A DNA stretch of 56,775 nt from a virus (lineage: Duplodnaviria > Caudoviricetes): the IMG/VR virus record IMGVR_UViG_3300015360_000005, positions 1-56,775 of that record; one strand, written 5' to 3'. The position numbers and the translations under genes are program-made. Positions 24,433-53,630 of this stretch are shown here, piece after piece (position 1 is the stretch's first letter; every line of letters starts with the position of its first letter). The notes beneath the pieces were generated by a model, which did not search any database, was not told where the DNA came from, and worked only from the letters and a program-made list of their open reading frames with translations.

Positions 24433-24666
24433 TCGGTGGGTCCCTGAAGGGGCCATACCATTCCTGCAGTCCGTCTGCTTCTAAAACTGAACACACTCAT
24501 TTATAAATAAATAAAAGGTACTATATATATATATATACTACTACTCGGGATCAATAAGTTAAGTATAAGTAAGTAAGTAAGTAAGGTAGTTAGCAGTTTT
24601 GGATGAGGGTACTAGGTTTTAAATACGGACGGACTGCAGGAATGGTATGGTCCCTGAAGGGGCCAT
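24433..24666. repeat. Inverted-repeat element with AT-rich core, copy 1 (candidate origin/regulatory site)
   Basis: Perfect 23-bp IR at 24453-24475 and 24628-24650; 16-bp DR TCCCTGAAGGGGCCAT at 24441 and 24651; (TA)n and (TAAG)n core; near-identical to 53403-53630. Confidence 0.9.
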
Positions 24667-31614: not shown

Positions 31615-32114
31615 GAATCGCCAGCTATTACCTGATGCAACTGGATCAGACAAAGGTAATGGCTGAAGAGCGAACGCGCTGCAAGCGGAAGGGAGTAGGA
31701 TGCGCTCTTCACAATTATACGGCGAGGGCGTTCTTTTCTAATAACGGTCCAGCTAGACCGAACTTCGGATGCTTGAACATTCCAGGAAAGTGTGGATGCG
31801 TTCATTCGGAACCGCGCGTTGTGATGAATGCTCTACGTGCAGGTTGGAAGTCCGGTCTGATCATGACCTGCACATATTCGCCGTGTGAAACGTGTGCTAA
31901 CATCATTATTGATTCTGGCGTAGTCGCCGGAGTAGTCTACGACATCATGACAACGTATCCCGACAGAGTATGTCGTGGAGCAGAATTCCTTCGCAGTGTA
32001 ATGCCAGTCATCACCGCGTTGGAGCTCAAGAAATTCTTGGCAGACCCTGCTACGGAGGTGGGAACAGGTGCTCAACTTAGGGAATGGGAATCTATTAGTC
32101 CAGTCAGCAAGTGA
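31599..32114 (+). CDS. dCMP deaminase-like zinc deaminase
   Basis: HSE and SPCETC motifs, C.RK.VGC. Confidence 0.85.
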   Translation: MRQQIRIASYYLMQLDQTKVMAEERTRCKRKGVGCALHNYTARAFFSNNGPARPNFGCLNIPGKCGCVHSEPRVVMNALRAGWKSGLIMTCTYSPCETCANIIIDSGVVAGVVYDIMTTYPDRVCRGAEFLRSVMPVITALELKKFLADPATEVGTGAQLREWESISPVSK

Positions 32115-34062
32115 ACTCCCGGAAGTCTTTGGAGTCAACGAGCTCTATCTGGACGTAGAAACACAGTCTAACAGCCCGAAGCGTCCCGGCGACTCCCCGT
32201 ATCAAGGGGATCGCATTTGTGGCGTCTCAATAACTTACGACGACTGCTCAAACGCATGGTACATTCCCGTGCGACACTCGGATGGGCGTTGGAACATAGA
32301 CATTGAGCCGTTCCAAAAATGGTTGCGAAAGGTTATCTGGTCTTCTAAGAGGTGGATCAATCACAACATTCTTTTTGACATGCACTTCTGTGCGATGGAT
32401 GGAGTTGAGTATACGTGGGATCAGTTTGTAACCGAGATCTTTGACACACTCGTGTTCGCCAAGATCGTGGACAGCGACCGCGTCATCGAAGGTTATGGAT
32501 TGAAAGACCTCGCTCACGATTGGTGCAATGCTGACAACGAAGATCGCACGCGGATGCAAGCGTATCTTAAAGGCATGAAGTCTAAGAACTATGCAGATTG
32601 TCCCGCAGACATCATGGGCGACTACGCTTGCGGAGACGTGCGAAAGAATCGCGCCGTGTACCACAAGATTCTGTCGATGTATGATTCCAGCATGAAGCTC
32701 TGCTGGGAAAACGAAATGCGTCTAACTCCTGTGATCTACGACATTGAAGATTTCGGAATGCCTGTTGACAACACAGAACTCAAGGTGGAGAAAGCGAAGT
32801 CGCTCCATAAACAGATTATGATGGGTGACAGGCTGCACACATTGCTCGGGCATGAAATGAACCCTAAGAGCAATCCGCAAGTCTATGACGTGCTGATCAA
32901 CCAGTTTGGACTTCCGATTCTCGCTACAAACGAAGACGAGAAAAGCAGCACGTTTGGAAATCCAACCTTCGACAAGGATGCGCTCGCGCTGTACCTTATT
33001 CATCCATCAGTACTTGCAGACCCTCTTAAGCTGGAAACAGTCAAGCTGATAAAAGGGCTCCGCGACGAATGTCACTTTGAGAGCTTGTTTCTGAACACAT
33101 ACATTGAGCAGGCTGTAAACGGCATTCTGCATCCGTCGTATAATCAAGTCGTGCGTACCGGACGCATGTCGTGTCGCAATCCAAATGCACAGCAACTAAA
33201 CAAACGCGCGAAGAAGTTAATTCATCCACGTCCTGGTATGGCAATCCTGTCCGCCGACTATTCGCAAATCGAATTCCGCCTCATCGCACATTATATTTGT
33301 GACCAAGAGGCGATTAAGGCATACAACGAAAAGCCAGACACAGACTTCCATTCCTGGGTCGCGTCTATGTGTGGTGTAAAGCGCAAGGCTGCGAAGTGCT
33401 TGAACTTCGGAATGGGATTTGGCGCTGGAAAAGCAAAGGTCGTTAAGATGCTTTCCGGTAATCCGGACGTCATAGAAGCAACGTCAGTCAAGATCAATCT
33501 CATGATCGAGTCTGGCGTGCTCATCGCTGCAAATCGAAACATTGAATACAAGAAGCAGTGCGAAATCCTAGCGGAGGGACTCTACAATATCTACCACGAA
33601 CGACTCCCTGGAATCAAGGCAACGTCGCGTCGCGCGGCGGATGTAGTTAAGGCACGCGGATACGTTTTCAACGCTTATGGAAGGCGTCGTCACTTGCAGG
33701 ATCGCTTCTGTTACAAGGCATTTAATTCTGTCGTTCAGTCGTGCGCGGCAGACGTCATGAAAGACACTACAGTCAAGCTCGCTCCGCGATACAACAAAGT
33801 CACACGAGACTGGGGATACAATATTTTCGCTCTCGTGCATGACGACGCGTCCGGCATGGGTCCTGTGGAATCAATCCTCGATCCAATGTTCCAAAGACAC
33901 CTTAAAACAACGTTGGAGGACTCCACGATAAAGTTTTCCATTCCAATTGTCACGGAAATGGGATACAGCCTGCGCGACTGGGGAGAAGCAAGCGCGGAAG
34001 AGCCTGTGGTGGTAGATGGGCATGTGGTAGCGGGACCGCTGAATAATTCCAGTCTACCATAG
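32068..34062 (+). CDS. polA: Family A DNA polymerase with 3'-5' exonuclease
   Basis: DVET, HNILFD, YACGD; RTGRMSC.NPN.QQ; motif A DYSQIEFR; motif B KCLNFGMGFG; motif C VHDD. Confidence 0.95.
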   Translation: MLNLGNGNLLVQSASELPEVFGVNELYLDVETQSNSPKRPGDSPYQGDRICGVSITYDDCSNAWYIPVRHSDGRWNIDIEPFQKWLRKVIWSSKRWINHNILFDMHFCAMDGVEYTWDQFVTEIFDTLVFAKIVDSDRVIEGYGLKDLAHDWCNADNEDRTRMQAYLKGMKSKNYADCPADIMGDYACGDVRKNRAVYHKILSMYDSSMKLCWENEMRLTPVIYDIEDFGMPVDNTELKVEKAKSLHKQIMMGDRLHTLLGHEMNPKSNPQVYDVLINQFGLPILATNEDEKSSTFGNPTFDKDALALYLIHPSVLADPLKLETVKLIKGLRDECHFESLFLNTYIEQAVNGILHPSYNQVVRTGRMSCRNPNAQQLNKRAKKLIHPRPGMAILSADYSQIEFRLIAHYICDQEAIKAYNEKPDTDFHSWVASMCGVKRKAAKCLNFGMGFGAGKAKVVKMLSGNPDVIEATSVKINLMIESGVLIAANRNIEYKKQCEILAEGLYNIYHERLPGIKATSRRAADVVKARGYVFNAYGRRRHLQDRFCYKAFNSVVQSCAADVMKDTTVKLAPRYNKVTRDWGYNIFALVHDDASGMGPVESILDPMFQRHLKTTLEDSTIKFSIPIVTEMGYSLRDWGEASAEEPVVVDGHVVAGPLNNSSLP

Positions 34063-34096: not shown

Positions 34097-34130
34097 TTCC
34101 TCGCGTTTACCCTAGGGTAAACGCGAGGAA
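34097..34130. repeat. Perfect 34-bp palindrome
   Basis: TTCCTCGCGTTTACCCT|AGGGTAAACGCGAGGAA, no spacer. Confidence 0.95.
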
Positions 34131-34201
34131 AACCGACTACAAAATATATATTACTTTGTTTCACAAAGTTAGAGGAAAGTCATAGCAAAAATCCCCATAA
34201 G

Positions 34202-34210
34202 TGCTACAAT
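34202..34210 (+). promoter_or_regulatory. Putative extended -10 promoter for the ribozyme-punctuated operon
   Basis: TG-C-TACAAT after an AT-rich tract at 34139-34200. Confidence 0.55.
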
Positions 34211-34216
34211 GGGGTC

Positions 34217-34588
34217 TCAATCGAAACGGGTCGGCAGCGCAACCTCGAAACTGCCAGTCGCGTCCAGCGCGCAAGCTATTGCAAGGCCTCCGGGTCTCAG
34301 GATTGGTTGACGTGTTCATTCGCTGCTATAGTGGTAGCGAACAGCAACACTATCCGCAAGGGTCGTCACTACCATGTTTTCCGGGTCGCGCGCAATGCAA
34401 GGCGGAAAATCCGCTGTGTAAGATCGCTCCCGCAAAATAACGTTTCGAAAGAAGCGTGTAGGCTCAATCCGGAGAAATGGATTGTAGAAACGTCGCGAGA
34501 CGTTCCGAGTCCGAAAGACAAATGCAGGACCCTTAATGCACACAACTAGGTCGAAACGCTGCAAGGCGAACATTCACCTTGCAGCGTC
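34217..34588 (+). ncRNA. Candidate structured ncRNA/leader ending at hammerhead 1
   Basis: No ORF with a good RBS; hairpins CGTTTC-GAAA-GAAGCG (34441-56), CAATCC..GGATTG (34465-84), AACGTC-GCGA-GACGTT (34489-504), GCGGA.TCCGC. Confidence 0.45.
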
Positions 34589-34618
34589 TGCGAGTATGGA
34601 GCTCGCACTGACGAGACC
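34549..34618 (+). ncRNA. Type II hammerhead ribozyme 1
   Basis: GGTC-GAAA-[CGCTGCAAGG/CCTTGCAGCG]-TC-[TGCGAG/CTCGCA]-CTGACGA-GACC; GUC site, cut after 34588. Confidence 0.93.
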
Positions 34619-34642
34619 ACAACCAAAAGAGGAGAAAAGAAG

Positions 34643-35032
34643 ATGGCAAAGATTACGATTGAATGTGTGAGCGAAGTTTTTGATCCGATGGCCCGCAACC
34701 CTACCTACATAGCTAGCATCAGGGAGGTAAAAGCGTATTCGCGCACCTCGGCCAAGCATGCATTAGCATGCTTGTCTGAGAAAATAGTGGCATTGGCTCA
34801 AATGGCTGTGGAAAAACAAAACTCGTCGCGAGTCATCATTATGACGCGCGACGCCGAGAATGCTTTCTTGCTGGTGGAGTTTCGACATGGTGCATGGATG
34901 TGGACTGCTGTTCGTAACGGTGGCACTTCTATATCCTGCATAACGTGCAAGACCATCGAAGAGGCGCTGAAGTATGCACGTAGTCAGGCTGAAGAATCAT
35001 TCTCAGGAATATTGTGGGAGTACAAGCTTTAA
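34643..35032 (+). CDS. Hypothetical protein (ribozyme-flanked unit 1)
   Basis: AGAGGAG RBS after ribozyme 1. Confidence 0.75.
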   Translation: MAKITIECVSEVFDPMARNPTYIASIREVKAYSRTSAKHALACLSEKIVALAQMAVEKQNSSRVIIMTRDAENAFLLVEFRHGAWMWTAVRNGGTSISCITCKTIEEALKYARSQAEESFSGILWEYKL

Positions 35033-35048
35033 TCCCGACAAACTCTAA

Positions 35049-35102
35049 GGTCGAAACGCGCGCGAGCGCGTCTGCGAGTATGGAGCTCGCACTGACGAGA
35101 CC
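35049..35102 (+). ncRNA. Type II hammerhead ribozyme 2
   Basis: GGTC-GAAA-CGCGC(GCGA)GCGCG-TC-TGCGAG(TATGGAG)CTCGCA-CTGACGA-GACC; cut after 35072. Confidence 0.94.
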
Positions 35103-35126
35103 AGCGTTCTCAAGGATGGCAACAAA

Positions 35127-35639
35127 ATGAAGACCGAACTTTTCGCAGACTATAACGAGTTCCTTGCTCGCCCCAATAAAACAGTCAACGGCGCGACGCA
35201 AGCTTTCGCGTTGCAGAACCACATAGATCTGGACCTTGACTCTGGAAACAACGGATGCTGGAATATGTGCTCCGGCTGTGCCGACTGCACAGGCTGCTCC
35301 GGCTGCTCCCGCTGCTGGGACTGCTCCGGCTGCACAGGCTGCTCCCGCTGCTCCCGCTGCTCCGGCTGCACAGGCTGCACCGACTGCACAGGCTGCTTCC
35401 GCTGCTGGGACTGCTTCCGCTGCTGGGACTGCTCCGGCTGCTGCTCCGGCTGCACCGACTGCACCGACTGCTCCCGCTGCGTCCGCTGCTCCGACTGCAC
35501 CGACTGCACCGAATGCTCCCGCTGCGTCCGCTGCTCCGACTGCCTCCACTGCTCCCGCTGCTCCGGCTGCTCCCGCCGTGAAGCAGGTGCTAAAATAGTC
35601 AATGCAAACGGCAGCCACACTACTGCCGAGATTGGATAG
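35127..35639 (+). CDS. (Cys-x-x)n repeat protein, paralogue A (ribozyme-flanked unit 2)
   Basis: MKTELFADY N-terminus shared with 49624 and 50189; 9-bp TGCNNNNNC repeats. Confidence 0.75.
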   Translation: MKTELFADYNEFLARPNKTVNGATQAFALQNHIDLDLDSGNNGCWNMCSGCADCTGCSGCSRCWDCSGCTGCSRCSRCSGCTGCTDCTGCFRCWDCFRCWDCSGCCSGCTDCTDCSRCVRCSDCTDCTECSRCVRCSDCLHCSRCSGCSRREAGAKIVNANGSHTTAEIG

Positions 35640-35692
35640 GTCGAAACGCGCGCGAGCGCGTCTGCGAGTATGGAGCTCGCACTGACGAGACC
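35639..35692 (+). ncRNA. Type II hammerhead ribozyme 3
   Basis: Identical to ribozyme 2; overlaps the upstream TAG; cut after 35662. Confidence 0.94.
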
Positions 35693-35714
35693 AGCGTTCT
35701 CAAGGAGAAAGAAG

Positions 35715-36050
35715 ATGACAAAGAGCAACAAAGCAGCAAAGCAGCAGTACCGGAAGCTCTCACCGGAAGAGACAGCAATTCTCAACAAAATCGAATCCGA
35801 CAAGAAACAGCTCAAGGCACTGCGTAAGGCAGTCCGGCAGGCAGAGGTCAAGGACCGCAAGGACGCACGAACTGCGGAAGGCAAAGAAGCCAAAGTCAAG
35901 CGGGACGCTATCCGCAACGGACGCAATACTGCACGCAAGGAGCTCGCAAAGGAGTTTGCAGCCTTCCGCAAAGATCCGACGAAGAGCGGCAACGCGAAGG
36001 CGATGGCCGAAGCAATGAAGGAATGGATGAAAGTCAACGTCCCGTTCTAG
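35715..36050 (+). CDS. Basic Lys/Ala/Arg-rich helical protein (ribozyme-flanked unit 3)
   Basis: AAGGAG RBS, ATG 35715, highly basic. Confidence 0.75.
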   Translation: MTKSNKAAKQQYRKLSPEETAILNKIESDKKQLKALRKAVRQAEVKDRKDARTAEGKEAKVKRDAIRNGRNTARKELAKEFAAFRKDPTKSGNAKAMAEAMKEWMKVNVPF

Positions 36051-36102
36051 GTCGAAACGCGCGCGAGCGCGTACAACGGTATCTGCCGTTGCTGATGAGA
36101 CC
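36050..36102 (+). ncRNA. Type II hammerhead ribozyme 4
   Basis: GGTC-GAAA-CGCGC(GCGA)GCGCG-TA-CAACGG(TATCTG)CCGTTG-CTGATGA-GACC; GUA site, cut after 36073; stem I fully co-varied. Confidence 0.94.
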
Positions 36103-36144: not shown

Positions 36145-36621
36145 ATGGCTGACGGAGCAAAGAAGGTCGGTGGTGGAGTTAAGAAGGTCGGAGGAGGAGC
36201 TTCCGCAGGAGGCAAGCCGGAAAAGGAAAAGCGCGCGAAGCGTGTTGCGTACGATCCGAAGACCGCGGCGAGGAACGAGCTCGACAAGGAAGGTAAGCTG
36301 ACCGTGTCCCGCCCAGTAAACTGGGATCCGATCAAGCACAAGCCGATCAAGAAGAAGGACTTCGCGATGTCGGCGAATCACATGGGTCACACGGCGGACA
36401 TCATCGAACAGAAGGGTAAGGACCTGATCGAGAAGGCCGGGAAGATGAAGATCAAGGCCGACCGCATGTCCAAGATGGGTGACGAGAAGACCCAGAAGAC
36501 GGTCAAGCGCGCCGAGAAGGTCTTCAAGCAGCTCTCCGAACTCAAGGCATCGCTGGCCGAAGCCGGAATCGACATCAACGAAATCCTCAAGGAGCAGGAC
36601 GAAGCCGCTGCGAAGGAATAA
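36145..36621 (+). CDS. Lys-rich hypothetical protein
   Basis: AAGGAG RBS; strong G/C-ending codon bias suggests high expression. Confidence 0.8.
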   Translation: MADGAKKVGGGVKKVGGGASAGGKPEKEKRAKRVAYDPKTAARNELDKEGKLTVSRPVNWDPIKHKPIKKKDFAMSANHMGHTADIIEQKGKDLIEKAGKMKIKADRMSKMGDEKTQKTVKRAEKVFKQLSELKASLAEAGIDINEILKEQDEAAAKE

Positions 36622-36633
36622 ATTGTCCGGCGG

Positions 36634-36710
36634 AAGGGTGAGGCATTTAGCCTCACCCTTTATACTTGGACCTCCTTTGCATATAAAGGAGCTCCAAGTG
36701 TAAAGGGTGA
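36634..36710 (+). terminator. Terminator-like hairpin with overlapping alternative long hairpin
   Basis: AAGGGTGAGGC/GCCTCACCCTT (36634-60) versus 36653-36710 stem. Confidence 0.6.
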
Positions 36711-37215: not shown

Positions 37216-37412
37216 ATATCAAACCTGAAGGACCCGGAGTATACCGTCTGCGCTTGCTCGACGGAACGATAGCAGTCTTTGAGGTACTGGACTCCAAGAC
37301 TGTAAGAGTGTTCGAAGAAGGATCAGAAACTAAGCGCGAGGTCTCTACGGAGGAGGCTCGTGCGTTCTACGAACGTTTCTGCAAGGAAGATAAAGCCAAA
37401 AGAATTACCTAA
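37212..37412 (+). CDS. Small hypothetical protein
   Basis: ATGA coupling to the upstream gene. Confidence 0.55.
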   Translation: MNIKPEGPGVYRLRLLDGTIAVFEVLDSKTVRVFEEGSETKREVSTEEARAFYERFCKEDKAKRIT

Positions 37413-37422
37413 GGAGGGTAAA

Positions 37423-39468
37423 ATGGAATCGCGATTAATCAATTTCATCAAGTCGTTACCAGTTCTTGAGCCTCTTTGCCTTGCAACGGCAAGTCAGCTC
37501 AAGCCTCTGCCGCTTAATCCTGTGGACCATCTCGAAGTTGACCTCAACGATGACGGCAGGTATTTCGCCGTCAATCCAATCGCGTGCTATAAGGGCATGC
37601 CGACGGGACATCCGGCGTCTAGTGTAGCGCGTGTCACGTGGCTCCGGCGCGTGCCGGAGAAGGAGGAGAAGCCAAAGGACTCAGGGAATTGGATGCTTGC
37701 CGCAACAGATTTCACTGCTCTGGTCATGGCGAACCAATGGCCAGAAGACAGGTTAATCTTCAAGAGCGAGAATGCTAAAGCGCTCTATCAGTTCCTGCTC
37801 ACACGGTTCTTGGTCCAAACCAAGACCGCAATAATTGGTGCAGAGTTCAAGCTTCTGCAGAAGGTCCCCGTCATGCCAGTGGACTTTGTGGAGCATCCGG
37901 ACCCTGACCTACGTTTAGCAGGCTACCAGAAGGTCCCGCTCAGTATGTCTCTGGGACAGGAGGCCTTTGCGCTCTTCATGCAGCAGGGAACAGGCAAGAC
38001 TCCTATCTGTGTGGCGCGTCTGTGCCTAGAGGCAAGACGCGCACGTCTAGGCAAGATGGGCAAGTCGCGAATGCTCCGCGTGCTCATTATCTGTCCGCGG
38101 CAAGCGCGGACGAACTGGCATAATGAGATAGACCGCTTTGCAGTAGTAGCGGGCAAGACGGTCATCCTGCGTGGAGGCAAGGTAGACCGCATGAAAGGAG
38201 TCGTGGATGCGATCCGAGACGAGAAGGACTGCGAATTCGGCGCGTGTATCTGCTCCTACGAGTCAATCGAAAACACGTGGTCGGCAATCGGTGCAGTTCC
38301 GTGGGACTTGGTCGTCGCCGACGAGTCGCACTACATTAAGAACGACCGTGCGCAACGCACACGAGCTCTGCACAAGCTCCGCGACGTAACTGGCAACAGG
38401 ATGATCCTCACAGGAACTCCGATCGTCAATCATCTCACAGACCTCTGGGCTCAGTTCGAGTTCCTTTCAGAGGGTCTGTCTGGCTTCCTCAAGTATTCCC
38501 AGTATAAAAAGTTCTATGGCCTCTTCGAGAAAGCAGAAGGCACTGCAAAGAGGGGAGGCCTTGAGCGCCTCATTGGAATGAAGAACGTCCCTCTGATCCA
38601 AGAGCGCTTGTCTCGTATCTCGTTCAGCATCACAAAGAAAGAAGCTGGATTAAACCTGCCGGACAAAGTGTACGACATGTTCGAAGTACAGATGGCGAGG
38701 AAACAGCGCGAGTATTATGTTCAGCTACAGAAACAGATCGCACTGGAAATTAAAATGGAGTCAAAGACCAAGACGCTCACCGCGGATCACATCCTTACCA
38801 AGATGCTTCGTCTGGCACAGATCACATCGGGGCACATCAAGTGGGACCCGATTATGGATGACGAAGGAACTGTTATCGACTGGGCGAAGGTCGAGCAGAT
38901 CTCACGCGTCAATCCAAAAGTGGAAGCTTGTGTTGACATTATCAAGGCAGACCGCGACGCCGATCCCAACTCCAAGACAATTATCTTTGCTACATTTAGA
39001 GAAGACCTCCGTGTGTTGGAAGCACGATTCAAGCAGGAGGGAATCAACCACGTTTGTTTCCACGGAGGCGTGAAGGACGCAGACCGTGAGATTGCAATCA
39101 CGCGCTACAACATGGATCCCAAGTGCGAGGGATTCTTGGGGAACCAGAAGTGCTGCTCAGAGGCTCTTAATCTTTTAGGCTACGACTATGTGACAACCAA
39201 AGCTGAAGACGCTCAGACGTACACTACGCGCGTCATCTACTTCAGCCAGAATTGGTCGCCAGTAGAACGCGCACAGTCCGAAGACAGAGCTCACAGACGT
39301 GGGACTGCATGCAATCTGCAAGTCACTGATCTTGTTGTGCCGGGAACAGTGGACGAGCAGATCCGCAAGAAGGTCGCTGGCAAGCGTACAGCGGCTGAAG
39401 AAGTACAGGACATCAAAGACATAATGCGACAGGTCCTCGAGACTGATGTTGGAGGGGAAGACGAATGA
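37423..39468 (+). CDS. SNF2-family helicase
   Basis: QGTGKT, DESHYIKN, LTGTP, QSEDRAHRRG. Confidence 0.92.
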   Translation: MESRLINFIKSLPVLEPLCLATASQLKPLPLNPVDHLEVDLNDDGRYFAVNPIACYKGMPTGHPASSVARVTWLRRVPEKEEKPKDSGNWMLAATDFTALVMANQWPEDRLIFKSENAKALYQFLLTRFLVQTKTAIIGAEFKLLQKVPVMPVDFVEHPDPDLRLAGYQKVPLSMSLGQEAFALFMQQGTGKTPICVARLCLEARRARLGKMGKSRMLRVLIICPRQARTNWHNEIDRFAVVAGKTVILRGGKVDRMKGVVDAIRDEKDCEFGACICSYESIENTWSAIGAVPWDLVVADESHYIKNDRAQRTRALHKLRDVTGNRMILTGTPIVNHLTDLWAQFEFLSEGLSGFLKYSQYKKFYGLFEKAEGTAKRGGLERLIGMKNVPLIQERLSRISFSITKKEAGLNLPDKVYDMFEVQMARKQREYYVQLQKQIALEIKMESKTKTLTADHILTKMLRLAQITSGHIKWDPIMDDEGTVIDWAKVEQISRVNPKVEACVDIIKADRDADPNSKTIIFATFREDLRVLEARFKQEGINHVCFHGGVKDADREIAITRYNMDPKCEGFLGNQKCCSEALNLLGYDYVTTKAEDAQTYTTRVIYFSQNWSPVERAQSEDRAHRRGTACNLQVTDLVVPGTVDEQIRKKVAGKRTAAEEVQDIKDIMRQVLETDVGGEDE

Positions 39469-53025: not shown

Positions 53026-53417
53026 TGAAGACTGAGAGCGATGTGCAGCGGATGTTCATCAGGGCGTGTGAGAGCTGCAATGGACTAGTGTTGAATATCC
53101 ATGGTCACGCGATGCAGAAATCGGGATGGCCAGACATCTTCGTGTCACATGCACGTCTCGACGGTGGATGCTGGATAGAGTTTAAGAAAGACTCCAATCA
53201 GTGTGACACTAACCAAATGCTCAAACTCGAGAAGTTAAGACATCGAGGGAGTCACGCATTCGTTGCACGCTATTTGAATAGCGATGGATGCCTGTATGCA
53301 GAAGACAGTCGACAGAATTCACTAGGCTTGTATATGGAACTGGACGTACTCAAGGAAAGTGCCTATAACGCTATTGAATTCATTCAGGAAGTGCAACGTT
53401 TGTCGGTGGGTACCTGA
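53022..53417 (+). CDS. VRR-NUC / Holliday-junction resolvase-like nuclease
   Basis: E..VQ, GWPD, WIEFK, Q...L..L...G. Confidence 0.8.
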   Translation: MMKTESDVQRMFIRACESCNGLVLNIHGHAMQKSGWPDIFVSHARLDGGCWIEFKKDSNQCDTNQMLKLEKLRHRGSHAFVARYLNSDGCLYAEDSRQNSLGLYMELDVLKESAYNAIEFIQEVQRLSVGT

Positions 53418-53630
53418 AGGGGCCATACCATTCCTGCAGTCCGTCTGCTTCTAAAACTGAACACACTCATTTATAAATAAAAGGTACTATATATATATAT
53501 ATACTACTACTCGGGATCAATAAGTTAAGTATAAGTAAGTAAGTAGTAAGTAGTTAAAAGTTTTGGATGAGGGTGTTCAGTTTTAAATACAGACGGACTG
53601 CAGGAATGGTATGGTCCCTGAAGGGGCCAT
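53403..53630. repeat. Inverted-repeat element with AT-rich core, copy 2
   Basis: 48-bp IR with 4 mismatches at 53423-53470 and 53567-53614; same core and flanking DR as copy 1. Confidence 0.9.

What the first reader, a model, noticed from the sequence alone, without database searches (positions are those of the whole stretch)
34549..36102. Four hammerhead ribozymes punctuate an operon, one between each gene
Seen: four elements with the full hammerhead core (GAAA, NUH, CUGANGA) and three stems, stem II open (type II). Stem III differs in copy 1 and stem I differs in copy 4, yet both stay fully paired, so structure rather than sequence is conserved. Copies 3 and 4 overlap the upstream stop codon, copy 2 follows one by 16 nt, and all four precede an RBS. 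Known: hammerheads leave 5'-OH and 2',3'-cyclic phosphate ends, which RtcB-type ligases join, and 5'-OH ends resist 5'-monophosphate-dependent decay. Hammerheads in phages are known; I do not know of this regular gene-by-gene use. Inference: the transcript self-processes into single-gene RNAs of 484 nt (34589-35072), 590 nt (35073-35662) and 411 nt (35663-36073), possibly stabilised or circularised mRNAs made without host RNases.
Basis: partly seen in the sequence, partly recalled or inferred. Interest (0 to 1): 0.95.

Follow-up and report, generated by a model that had tools for sequence, protein, structure and literature searches.

The report
Four hammerhead ribozymes between phage genes
A complete 57-kb phage genome from a microbial mat carries four self-cutting hammerhead RNA motifs, one in front of each of four small genes, which is a clear but ordinary example of an arrangement described in phages and prophages since 2011.

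Summary
Exactly four type II hammerhead motifs lie on the + strand at 34549-34618, 35049-35102, 35639-35692 and 36050-36102. My descriptor found no others in the window and none in 300 shuffles. All four have the full core and fold as three-way junctions.

They score below Rfam's cut-off for RF02276: 34, 30.5, 30.5 and 21.9 bits against 37. A covariance model built only from 36 hammerheads of other viral contigs scores them 64, 63, 58 and 39 bits. The next hit scores 12 bits.

The predicted cuts and the 484, 590 and 411 nt units are arithmetically right. No RNA data exist, so cutting is inferred.

The arrangement is not new. Perreault et al. 2011 described clustered hammerheads flanking single genes in prophages, showed cleavage of triple arrays, and looked for circles without finding them. 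In IMG/VR I found arrays of up to nine copies. This scan has noted similar arrays on other DNA.

Verdict: a new member of a known kind. Stabilised or circular mRNAs remain untested. The phage encodes no RtcB.

The parts
34549..34618 (+). HH1, type II hammerhead. Stem III is 11 bp with a 10-nt loop. Stem I is 6 bp with loop UAUGGAG. GUC, predicted cut after 34588.
   Evidence: Sequence; descriptor hit; three-way-junction fold, z -5.1; RF02276 34.0 bits against a cut-off of 37; own model R1 38.8 bits, E 9e-10.
35049..35102 (+). HH2, type II hammerhead. Stem III is 6 bp with a GCGA loop. Predicted cut after 35072. Identical to HH3 over 35048-35116.
   Evidence: RF02276 30.5 bits; R1 63.1 bits.
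35639..35692 (+). HH3, type II hammerhead. Its first G is the last base of the TAG stop of gene B. Predicted cut after 35662.
   Evidence: RF02276 30.5 bits; R1 64.0 bits.
36050..36102 (+). HH4, type II hammerhead with a different stem I (CAACGG/CCGUUG, loop UAUCUG) and a GUA site. Its first G is the last base of the TAG stop of gene C. Predicted cut after 36073.
   Evidence: RF02276 21.9 bits, seen only when the 101-nt stretch was searched alone; R1 58.3 bits.
34643..35032 (+). Gene A, 129 aa, unknown function. Predicted unit RNA 34589-35072 (484 nt).
   Evidence: ORF list; only sub-threshold family hits; Atlas hits are leads only, TM 0.40-0.45.
35127..35639 (+). Gene B, 170 aa, a long run of Cys-x-x repeats. 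Predicted unit RNA 35073-35662 (590 nt).
   Evidence: ORF list; phrog_15341, unknown function, E 9.6e-15; no Pfam family.
35715..36050 (+). Gene C, 111 aa from the ATG behind AAGGAG, Lys/Arg-rich, unknown function. Predicted unit RNA 35663-36073 (411 nt).
   Evidence: The longer ORF from ATG 35670 starts inside loop I of HH3 and has no ribosome-binding site.
36145..36621 (+). Gene D, 158 aa, Lys-rich, unknown function. Last unit, from 36074 to the hairpins behind the gene.
   Evidence: no usable hit.
36633..36702 (+). Two strong tandem hairpins behind gene D. The first is a GC-rich stem followed by UUUAUACUU. This is the likely 3' end of the transcription unit (inferred).
   Evidence: Fold z -4.6 and -6.1. 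Not called by the terminator rule.
34097..34548 (+). A 15-bp hairpin behind the polymerase gene (34097-34130), then about 420 nt without a convincing gene, ending at HH1. A possible extended -10 box (TGcTACAAT) lies at 34202-34210. HH1 would cut this leader off.
   Evidence: Leader fold z -1.9. No sigma-70-like site on + by the tool. ORF 34307-34549 has no homologue and is not itself in the protein collection.

Best explanation
The four elements are active cis-cleaving type II hammerhead ribozymes in the replication-gene region of a complete double-stranded DNA phage. As the + strand transcript of roughly 34.1-36.7 kb is made, each ribozyme folds and cuts itself after its GUC or GUA.

This yields a leader RNA ending at 34588, three single-gene RNAs (484, 590 and 411 nt) and a last unit carrying gene D. 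Because the ribozymes are type II, each cut leaves two hairpin-capped ends:
- the stem III hairpin with a 2',3'-cyclic phosphate at the 3' end of the upstream RNA, 23-40 nt behind its stop codon;
- the stem I hairpin with a 5'-OH at the 5' end of the downstream RNA, 52-71 nt ahead of its start codon.

The probable use is to uncouple the stability and translation of neighbouring small accessory genes without a host RNase.

Shown here: the motifs, their structure, their placement, and membership of a large viral hammerhead family. Inferred: transcription as one unit, cleavage, and any effect on stability.
For: - Full core and three helices in 4 of 4.
- Exactly 4 descriptor hits in the window against 0 in 300 shuffles.
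- Best Rfam family is RF02276 for all four.
- A model built from 36 hammerheads of other viral contigs scores them 64.0, 63.1, 58.3 and 38.8 bits. The next hit in the window scores 12.1 bits.
- That family alignment is 99.8% paired, with 155 cells changed on both sides. 0 of 500 shuffles reached the observed covariation.
- In an unselected test, 136 of 141 occurrences of the same core and stem II letters in IMG/VR loci have both hairpins. Only 2 of 1410 shuffled inner segments do.
- All ORFs of 100 aa or more that look like genes are on the + strand, so the motifs are in sense.
- The placement is typical of the family. Of 139 hammerheads (4 of them from the window), 125 have an ORF of 50 aa or more ending nearby. 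The median gap is 2 nt, and 24 share one base with the stop codon. 99 have an ORF start behind them, at a median of 21 nt.
- Print: clustered hammerheads flanking single genes in prophages. Three-ribozyme arrays cleaved in vitro, and one in E. coli (Perreault 2011, passages). Three type II hammerheads near phage-like genes cut in vivo in Desulfovibrio vulgaris (passages).
Against: - No RNA evidence: no RNA run holds the stretch.
- All four are below Rfam's gathering score.
- The stem I hairpins are 19, 19, 19 and 18 nt. 147 of 163 relatives have 17 nt. Perreault 2011 reports that changing stem lengths lowered activity in a pseudoknot-type ribozyme. These copies could therefore be slow.
- No loop I to 3'-tail pseudoknot is evident, in these copies or in the subfamily: mean 2.59 against 2.52 pairs in controls.
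- The promoter and terminator are read by eye. The consensus scan called neither on the + strand, so the extent of the transcript is not established.
- HH2 and HH3 are one sequence, which reduces the independent copies to three.
- The source contigs break at these repeats. The cassette order therefore rests on the original assembly.
Confidence: 0.8

Rival explanations
1. Circular or re-joined RNAs. After cutting, the two ends of each unit re-form a hammerhead, because all copies share the core and the GGUC/GACC stem II. A host RtcB-type ligase, or the ribozyme's own reverse reaction, then joins them. The products would be circular single-gene mRNAs or spliced variants.
For: Units A, B and C have the same 5' end (stem I of HH1-3) and the same 3' end (stem III of HH2-4). 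Any unit's ends can therefore rebuild a complete hammerhead (read). Hammerhead-flanked units do circularise in viroids and retrozymes (reviews, passages).
Against: Perreault 2011 considered exactly this for phage arrays and writes that neither spliced nor circular products could be detected ('data not shown'). The complete phage has no RtcB (PF01139) and no PF09414 RNA ligase. The PF09511 search was uninformative because its control rang nowhere. Only a 4-bp stem II would hold the ends together across 400-540 nt.
Confidence: 0.05
2. The ribozyme copies also act at the DNA level, as short homologies at which single-gene cassettes are duplicated, swapped or converted. This does not exclude cleavage. 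The array would then be partly a by-product of how accessory genes are acquired.
For: - HH2 and HH3 are identical over 69 nt around gene B. According to an earlier, unchecked note, gene B has paralogues elsewhere in the genome.
- The mosaic pattern: HH1 shares stem I with HH2/3, and HH4 shares stem III with HH2/3.
- In other arrays, stems are identical more often within an array than between arrays. Stem III: 16 of 91 pairs against about 2%. Stem I: 6 of 91 against about 1%.
- The flanked genes are unrelated and of unknown function here and 'not constant' in print.
Against: Most within-array pairs have diverged stems with compensatory changes. Selection therefore acts on RNA structure, not on DNA identity. 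I found no relative of this phage with a different cassette in the same slot.
Confidence: 0.2
3. Conditional cutting gated by translation. The upstream stop codon lies in or at the 5' strand of stem II, so a terminating ribosome must unfold the ribozyme. The cut, and with it the fate of the downstream gene's RNA, would depend on ribosome traffic on the upstream gene.
For: The stop codon shares a base with stem II in HH3 and HH4. Across the family the median gap between stop codon and ribozyme is 2 nt. It is 0-5 nt in 70 and a 1-nt overlap in 24 of 125. Perreault 2011 raises regulated cleavage as a possibility for phage hammerheads.
Against: The tight spacing may be simple genome compaction. 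The conserved A before stem II makes UAG or UAA easy to place there. HH2 lies 16 nt behind its stop codon. There are no functional data.
Confidence: 0.12
4. Inactive relics, or plain hairpin elements (terminators, protein sites, REP-like repeats) that only resemble hammerheads.
For: Sub-threshold Rfam scores. Unusual stem I loop lengths. No RNA data.
Against: Every conserved core position is intact in all four. Both variable stems are kept by compensatory change. There were no chance matches in 300 shuffles. The independent family model gives strong scores.
Confidence: 0.06

Closest known systems
Clustered hammerhead ribozymes flanking single genes in prophages (Perreault et al. 2011, PLoS Comput Biol, PMC3088659; triple arrays of Agrobacterium tumefaciens, Azorhizobium caulinodans, Clostridium scindens)
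   Same: Several hammerheads on one strand, each between small genes of varying or unknown function in phage DNA. They are read as cutting a long transcript into single-gene RNAs. Circles and splicing were already considered there.
   Different: Here there are four copies in a free (not integrated) complete phage genome from a metagenome, with no experimental data. The copies have a 4-bp GGUC/GACC stem II and no evident pseudoknot.
Rfam RF02276, Hammerhead_II
   Same: Same core, same type II topology, and the best-matching Rfam family for all four.
   Different: The scores (34, 30.5, 30.5, 21.9 bits) are under the 37-bit cut-off. The Rfam consensus has a 2-bp stem II and a 3' tail that pairs with loop I. 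These copies and their IMG/VR relatives have a 4-bp stem II and no such pairing.
Type II hammerheads of Desulfovibrio vulgaris shown to cut in vivo by cyPhyRNA-seq (PMC8782182)
   Same: Type II hammerheads near hypothetical and phage-like genes. By the coordinates quoted, two of them lie about 245 nt apart on one strand.
   Different: Those are chromosomal and have been tested. This case is a four-copy array in a phage and has not been tested.
Hammerhead-flanked units of viroids, satellite RNAs and retrozymes
   Same: A unit bounded by hammerhead cuts whose ends can rebuild the ribozyme.
   Different: Those are non-coding or replicating RNAs with a known ligase step. Here the units are unrelated mRNAs of a DNA phage, and no ligation has been seen in comparable arrays.

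Membership tests
Hammerhead ribozyme, type II | Conserved core: C3 U4 G5 A6 N7 G8 A9, G12 A13 A14, A15.1-U16.1, H17 (not G) | tested here: met
   All positions present in 4 of 4. The descriptor that requires them found exactly these 4. The criteria are as quoted from Perreault 2011.
Hammerhead ribozyme, type II | Three helices around the core, with standard pairs next to the core (10.1-11.1, 1.1-2.1, 15.1-16.1) | tested here: met
   The minimum-free-energy fold is the three-way junction in 4 of 4. Stem II is 4 bp, stem III is 6 or 11 bp, stem I is 6 bp.
Hammerhead ribozyme, type II | Stems I and III closed by loops, stem II open | tested here: met
   Order of parts in the sequence.
Hammerhead ribozyme, type II | Score at or above Rfam's gathering score for RF02276 (37 bits) | tested here: not met
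   34.0, 30.5, 30.5 and 21.9 bits. The same holds for relatives: none of the 37 descriptor hammerheads in 10 IMG/VR array loci was called at gathering. The cut-off therefore misses this subfamily as a whole.
Hammerhead ribozyme, type II | Match to a covariance model of independently collected family members | tested here: met
   Model R1, built from 36 hammerheads of other viral contigs, gives 64.0, 63.1, 58.3 and 38.8 bits. The next hit scores 12.1 bits.
Hammerhead ribozyme, type II | [quoted passage not shown] | tested here: inconclusive
   At most 3-4 possible pairs in these copies. There is no enrichment over shuffled tails in 140 family members: 2.59 against 2.52. Loop I keeps the family's closing G-C pair, first U and last G, but is 1-2 nt longer than in 147 of 163 relatives. 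Perreault 2011 estimates that about 40% of hammerheads use a pseudoknot.
Hammerhead ribozyme, type II | Site-specific self-cleavage giving 2',3'-cyclic phosphate and 5'-OH ends | not testable with these tools
   No RNA run holds the stretch.
Hammerhead arrays that process phage polycistronic transcripts | Two or more hammerheads on the coding strand flanking single genes in phage DNA | tested here: met
   Four copies at the leader/A, A/B, B/C and C/D junctions. Complete virus record with terminal repeats. Polymerase and SNF2 helicase flank the block. Genes lie on the + strand.
Hammerhead arrays that process phage polycistronic transcripts | One transcript spans the array and is cut at each copy | not testable with these tools
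   The promoter and terminator are read by eye only. No RNA data.
Ribozyme-bounded circular RNAs (viroid or retrozyme type) | Ligation of the two ends of a unit (back-junction), with a ligase at hand | tested here: inconclusive
   The ends are compatible by sequence. The phage has no RtcB or PF09414 ligase. The host is unknown. No RNA reads are available to look for junctions. Perreault 2011 reports such products as not detected in comparable arrays.

The most novel reading that the evidence does not exclude
The excised single-gene units are not end products. Units A, B and C all carry the same ribozyme halves at their ends, so each can rebuild a hammerhead across its own ends. A host ligase or the reverse reaction could then join them. 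The result would be circular, exonuclease-proof phage mRNAs or re-assorted messages. Cutting would be timed by the ribosome that terminates inside stem II.
Probability: 0.06. Interest if true: 0.8.

Novelty: new member of a known kind. Interest (0 to 1): 0.28.

Why it matters
This is a clean, complete-genome example of ribozyme-punctuated phage gene blocks. Their biological role is still called an open question in reviews (passages).

Three by-products of this check may be useful beyond this one phage:
- Rfam's cut-off misses this whole subfamily: 0 of 4 copies here and 0 of 37 in ten other viral loci. Such arrays are therefore under-annotated.
- In this family the ribozyme starts a median of 2 nt after the upstream stop codon and ends a median of 21 nt before the next start. 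This constrains any model of how cutting and translation interact.
- The type II layout leaves a hairpin on both new RNA ends.

None of this changes the class of the finding.

Tried and rejected
- **Rfam.** At gathering level the whole window gave nothing. At E up to 1, no other ribozyme class appeared.
- **Cultured phages.** An 8-kb query matched only the Cys-repeat gene and a helicase piece. The 72-nt ribozyme query found no match.
- **Close relatives of the phage.** A search with the helicase protein found none. tblastn of the window's ORFs against the 120 hammerhead loci gave only distant helicase and other hits at 21-31% identity. I therefore could not ask whether close relatives keep or swap the cassettes.
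- **RNA evidence.** No RNA holder is listed. The three DNA runs are contigs. They show only that contigs break at the ribozyme repeats and that strain variants cover HH1 and HH4. Parts without cover say nothing.
- **Pseudoknot between loop I and the 3' tail.** No enrichment.
- **Gene functions.** PHROGs, Pfam and the ESM Atlas gave no function for genes A, C and D. Gene B hits only a PHROG of unknown function.
- **ORF 34307-34549 in the leader.** No homologue, so its coding status stays open.
- **Promoter and terminator scan.** It called neither the by-eye promoter nor the hairpin behind gene D.
- **RNA ligases.** The PF09511 search was uninformative because the control rang nowhere.
- **Papers not seen.** Jimenez et al. 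2011 (J Biol Chem), Roth et al. 2014 and Weinberg et al. 2015 are not in the searched library or were not read. I mention them from recall and from reference lists seen. The supplementary figures of Perreault 2011 (S1-S3, the array assays) were not seen. Only their legends appear.
- **Searches not made.** I did not search whether the stop-codon abutment or the Rfam blind spot is already in print.
Full report
**What the window is.** The window is a whole IMG/VR virus record of 56,775 bases with direct terminal repeats, rated 100% complete. The ORFs of 100 aa or more that look like genes all lie on the + strand. The stretch in question lies between a family A DNA polymerase (32068-34062; phrog_17, E 9e-92) and an SNF2-type helicase (37360-39468; phrog_62, E 5e-94). 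It is therefore in the replication region of a tailed-phage-like genome. Three DNA runs from microbial-mat metagenomes hold the stretch. One of them may be its source.

**The observation.** The sequence shows four elements of the form GGUC-GAAA-[hairpin closed by A-U]-H-[hairpin]-CUGANGA-GACC.

| Copy | Span | Site | Predicted cut after |
|---|---|---|---|
| HH1 | 34549-34618 | GUC | 34588 |
| HH2 | 35049-35102 | GUC | 35072 |
| HH3 | 35639-35692 | GUC | 35662 |
| HH4 | 36050-36102 | GUA | 36073 |

This is the complete hammerhead core with stems I and III capped and stem II open (type II).

- Folded alone, all four adopt the three-way junction as their minimum-energy structure.
- A descriptor of my own found exactly these four on both strands of the window and none in 300 dinucleotide-preserving shuffles. 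It required the core, at least 4 bp in stems I and III, and at least 3 bp in stem II.
- Stem III of HH1 is an 11-bp helix that shares only its four base-proximal pairs with the 6-bp, GCGA-capped stem III of HH2-4.
- Stem I of HH4 differs from that of HH1-3 at five of six pairs and remains fully paired.
- HH2 and HH3 are identical over 69 nt, so there are three independent versions.
- The stop codons of genes B and C share their last G with stem II. HH2 begins 16 nt after the stop of gene A.
- Each copy is followed by a Shine-Dalgarno-like run and a start codon.
- The unit lengths of 484, 590 and 411 nt are right.

**Family membership.**
- Rfam at its gathering thresholds reports nothing in the window.
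- With E-value reporting, HH1-3 match RF02276 (Hammerhead_II) at 34.0, 30.5 and 30.5 bits against a cut-off of 37.
- HH4 reaches 21.9 bits when its 101-nt stretch is searched alone.
- The shortfall comes from the model. The Rfam consensus has a 2-bp stem II and a 3' tail that pairs with loop I. These copies have a 4-bp stem II.

To test membership independently I scanned IMG/VR for the core and stem II letters with free inner parts.
- Of 141 such core pairs, 136 have both hairpins. Only 2 of 1410 shuffled inner segments do. There are 116 different stem III and 113 different stem I sequences.
- An alignment of 36 of them, none from this window, is 99.8% paired, with 155 cells changed on both sides. 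0 of 500 shuffles reached the observed covariation. These 36 had been picked by a descriptor that demands four pairs per stem, so the unselected test is the fairer one.
- A covariance model built from that alignment scores the four window copies at 64.0, 63.1, 58.3 and 38.8 bits. The next hit scores 12.1 bits. There are four copies and no hidden fifth.
- The family consensus has an A on either side of stem II and a loop I closed by G-C that starts with U and ends with G. The window's copies keep all of these.
- Their stem I hairpins are 19, 19, 19 and 18 nt. 147 of 163 relatives have 17 nt.
- There is no sign of the published loop I to 3'-tail pseudoknot in these copies or in the subfamily.
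- Rfam's cut-off misses the subfamily as a whole. In ten array-bearing loci with 37 descriptor hammerheads it called none. It did call a tRNA, a tmRNA and a twister-P5 ribozyme.

**Surroundings.**
- A 15-bp hairpin (34097-34130) follows the polymerase gene.
- About 420 nt without a convincing gene come next. They contain a possible extended -10 box, and HH1 lies at their end.
- Two strong hairpins follow gene D, the first with a U-rich tail.
- This suggests one transcription unit of about 2.5 kb. The consensus scan called neither the promoter nor the terminator, so the unit is inferred.
- Genes A (129 aa), C (111 aa) and D (158 aa) have no recognisable family. Gene B (170 aa) is a Cys-x-x repeat protein matching only a PHROG of unknown function.
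- This matches the description in print of such flanked genes as small, non-conserved and of unknown function.

**How common the arrangement is.**
- Among the 120 IMG/VR loci, 31 of the 115 locus-strands with a descriptor hit carry two or more copies on one strand.
- The sizes are 24 with two, 3 with three, 2 with four, 1 with five and 1 with nine.
- In the arrays I looked at (L028 with nine, L060 with five, L092 and L025 with four), one small ORF lies between successive ribozymes.
- In L092 and L060 the last copy stands directly before a distant homologue of the SNF2 helicase.
- Across 139 hammerheads, including the window's four, 125 have an ORF of 50 aa or more ending nearby. The median gap is 2 nt. 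24 overlap the stop codon by one base. 99 have an ORF start behind them, at a median of 21 nt.

**What is in print.** For each paper I read passages by term search, not the whole text.
- Perreault et al. [quoted passage not shown] - They report that three tandem arrangements gave the expected products in vitro, and that the Agrobacterium triple array cut in E. coli.
- A 2017 review repeats that hammerheads lie close together, flanking small non-conserved ORFs with a persistent phage link. It calls their role an open question.
- A 2019 review says that processing of polycistronic transcripts into RNAs of different stability or translation efficiency has been suggested but not established.
- cyPhyRNA-seq showed three type II hammerheads near phage-like genes to cut in vivo.
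- This scan's own earlier notes, which are unchecked, list similar arrays in other genomes, some with about 30 copies.

**Mechanism.** The best-supported reading is co-transcriptional self-cleavage at each junction.

A consequence of the type II layout follows directly from the sequence:
- The upstream product ends in the GC-rich stem III hairpin with a cyclic phosphate, 23-40 nt behind its stop codon.
- The downstream product begins with the stem I hairpin and a 5'-OH, 52-71 nt before its start codon.
- Both new ends are therefore hairpin-capped and chemically unlike the ends that 5'-monophosphate-dependent and 3'-exonucleolytic decay prefer. That last point is general knowledge and was not tested here.
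- That this stabilises the messages or sets their ratios is inference.

The circle idea is structurally possible. Units A, B and C carry identical ribozyme halves at their ends. It has three points against it:
- the negative report of 2011;
- the weakness of a 4-bp closing helix across 400-540 nt;
- the absence of RtcB and PF09414 ligase genes in the complete phage.

A DNA-level role as cassette borders has some support:
- the 69-nt identity around gene B;
- the mosaic sharing of stems among the four copies;
- the excess of identical stems within arrays elsewhere, 16 of 91 and 6 of 91 pairs against about 2% and 1%.

It does not compete with cleavage. Translation-gated cutting is suggested only by the tight abutment of the stop codon.

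**Caveats.**
- No RNA data exist for this stretch, so activity is inferred from sequence and from relatives.
- Public contigs of the probable source run break at the ribozyme repeats. The order of the cassettes therefore depends on the original assembly, although 69 nt is short enough for ordinary reads to span.
- The supplementary figures of the 2011 paper were not available to me.

**Verdict.** It is the published reading of a published arrangement, so this is a new member of a known kind. The bolder parts, stabilised or circular mRNAs, remain untested and are unlikely for circles.

Noticed in passing
window 35127-35639: Gene B is a long (Cys-x-x)n repeat protein matching phrog_15341, of unknown function. 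Its repeat DNA matches hypothetical genes of Vibrio, Edwardsiella, Pseudomonas and Acinetobacter phages at 66-86% identity. In the mat runs, much deeper contigs match parts of it. Joints skip 142-256 nt of the repeat tract, so repeat number seems variable or other genomes carry relatives.
   Followed up: partly
window 34131-34548: About 420 nt between the polymerase hairpin and HH1 hold no convincing gene. The fold is only mildly better than shuffles, z -1.9. ORF 34307-34549 (80 aa, TTG start) ends in a TAG that shares its G with HH1, as at HH3 and HH4. It has no homologue and is not in the protein collection. Indels in a strain variant of run X2 come in sets that sum to 3 nt. Whether this stretch is coding or an RNA is unresolved.
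   Followed up: partly
window 36633-36702: Two adjacent strong hairpins lie behind gene D, z -6.1 for the whole stretch. Weak microRNA-family matches here merely reflect the long hairpin. Variants in run X2 change the loop of the first hairpin and not its stem.
   Followed up: partly
L028, L060, L092, L025, L062, L098, L107, L007, L021, L041: Rfam at gathering level called none of the 37 descriptor hammerheads in these ten viral loci. The 4-bp-stem-II, pseudoknot-free type II subfamily is invisible to standard Rfam annotation.
   Followed up: partly
L098:10002-10065 (-): A twister-P5 ribozyme (49.2 bits, above the cut-off) lies on the same strand as three hammerheads of this locus, so this is a mixed ribozyme array.
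   Followed up: no
L092:213-1608 and L060:172-2843: Arrays of four and five hammerheads end directly in front of distant homologues (21-23% identity) of the window's SNF2 helicase. Perreault 2011 notes a hammerhead 13 nt before a helicase gene in haloviruses HF1 and HF2. This may be a recurring ribozyme-helicase neighbourhood.
   Followed up: partly
120 IMG/VR loci plus window: In this hammerhead family the ribozyme begins a median of 2 nt after the stop codon of an upstream ORF. 24 of 125 share one base with it, and 70 have a gap of 0-5 nt. The next ORF starts a median of 21 nt behind the ribozyme. Stem I hairpins are 17 nt in 147 of 163.
   Followed up: partly
window 24443-24660 and 53415-53621: Two long inverted-repeat elements show up as weak plant-microRNA-family matches on the - strand. 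They are the duplicated element that another note of this scan describes.
   Followed up: no
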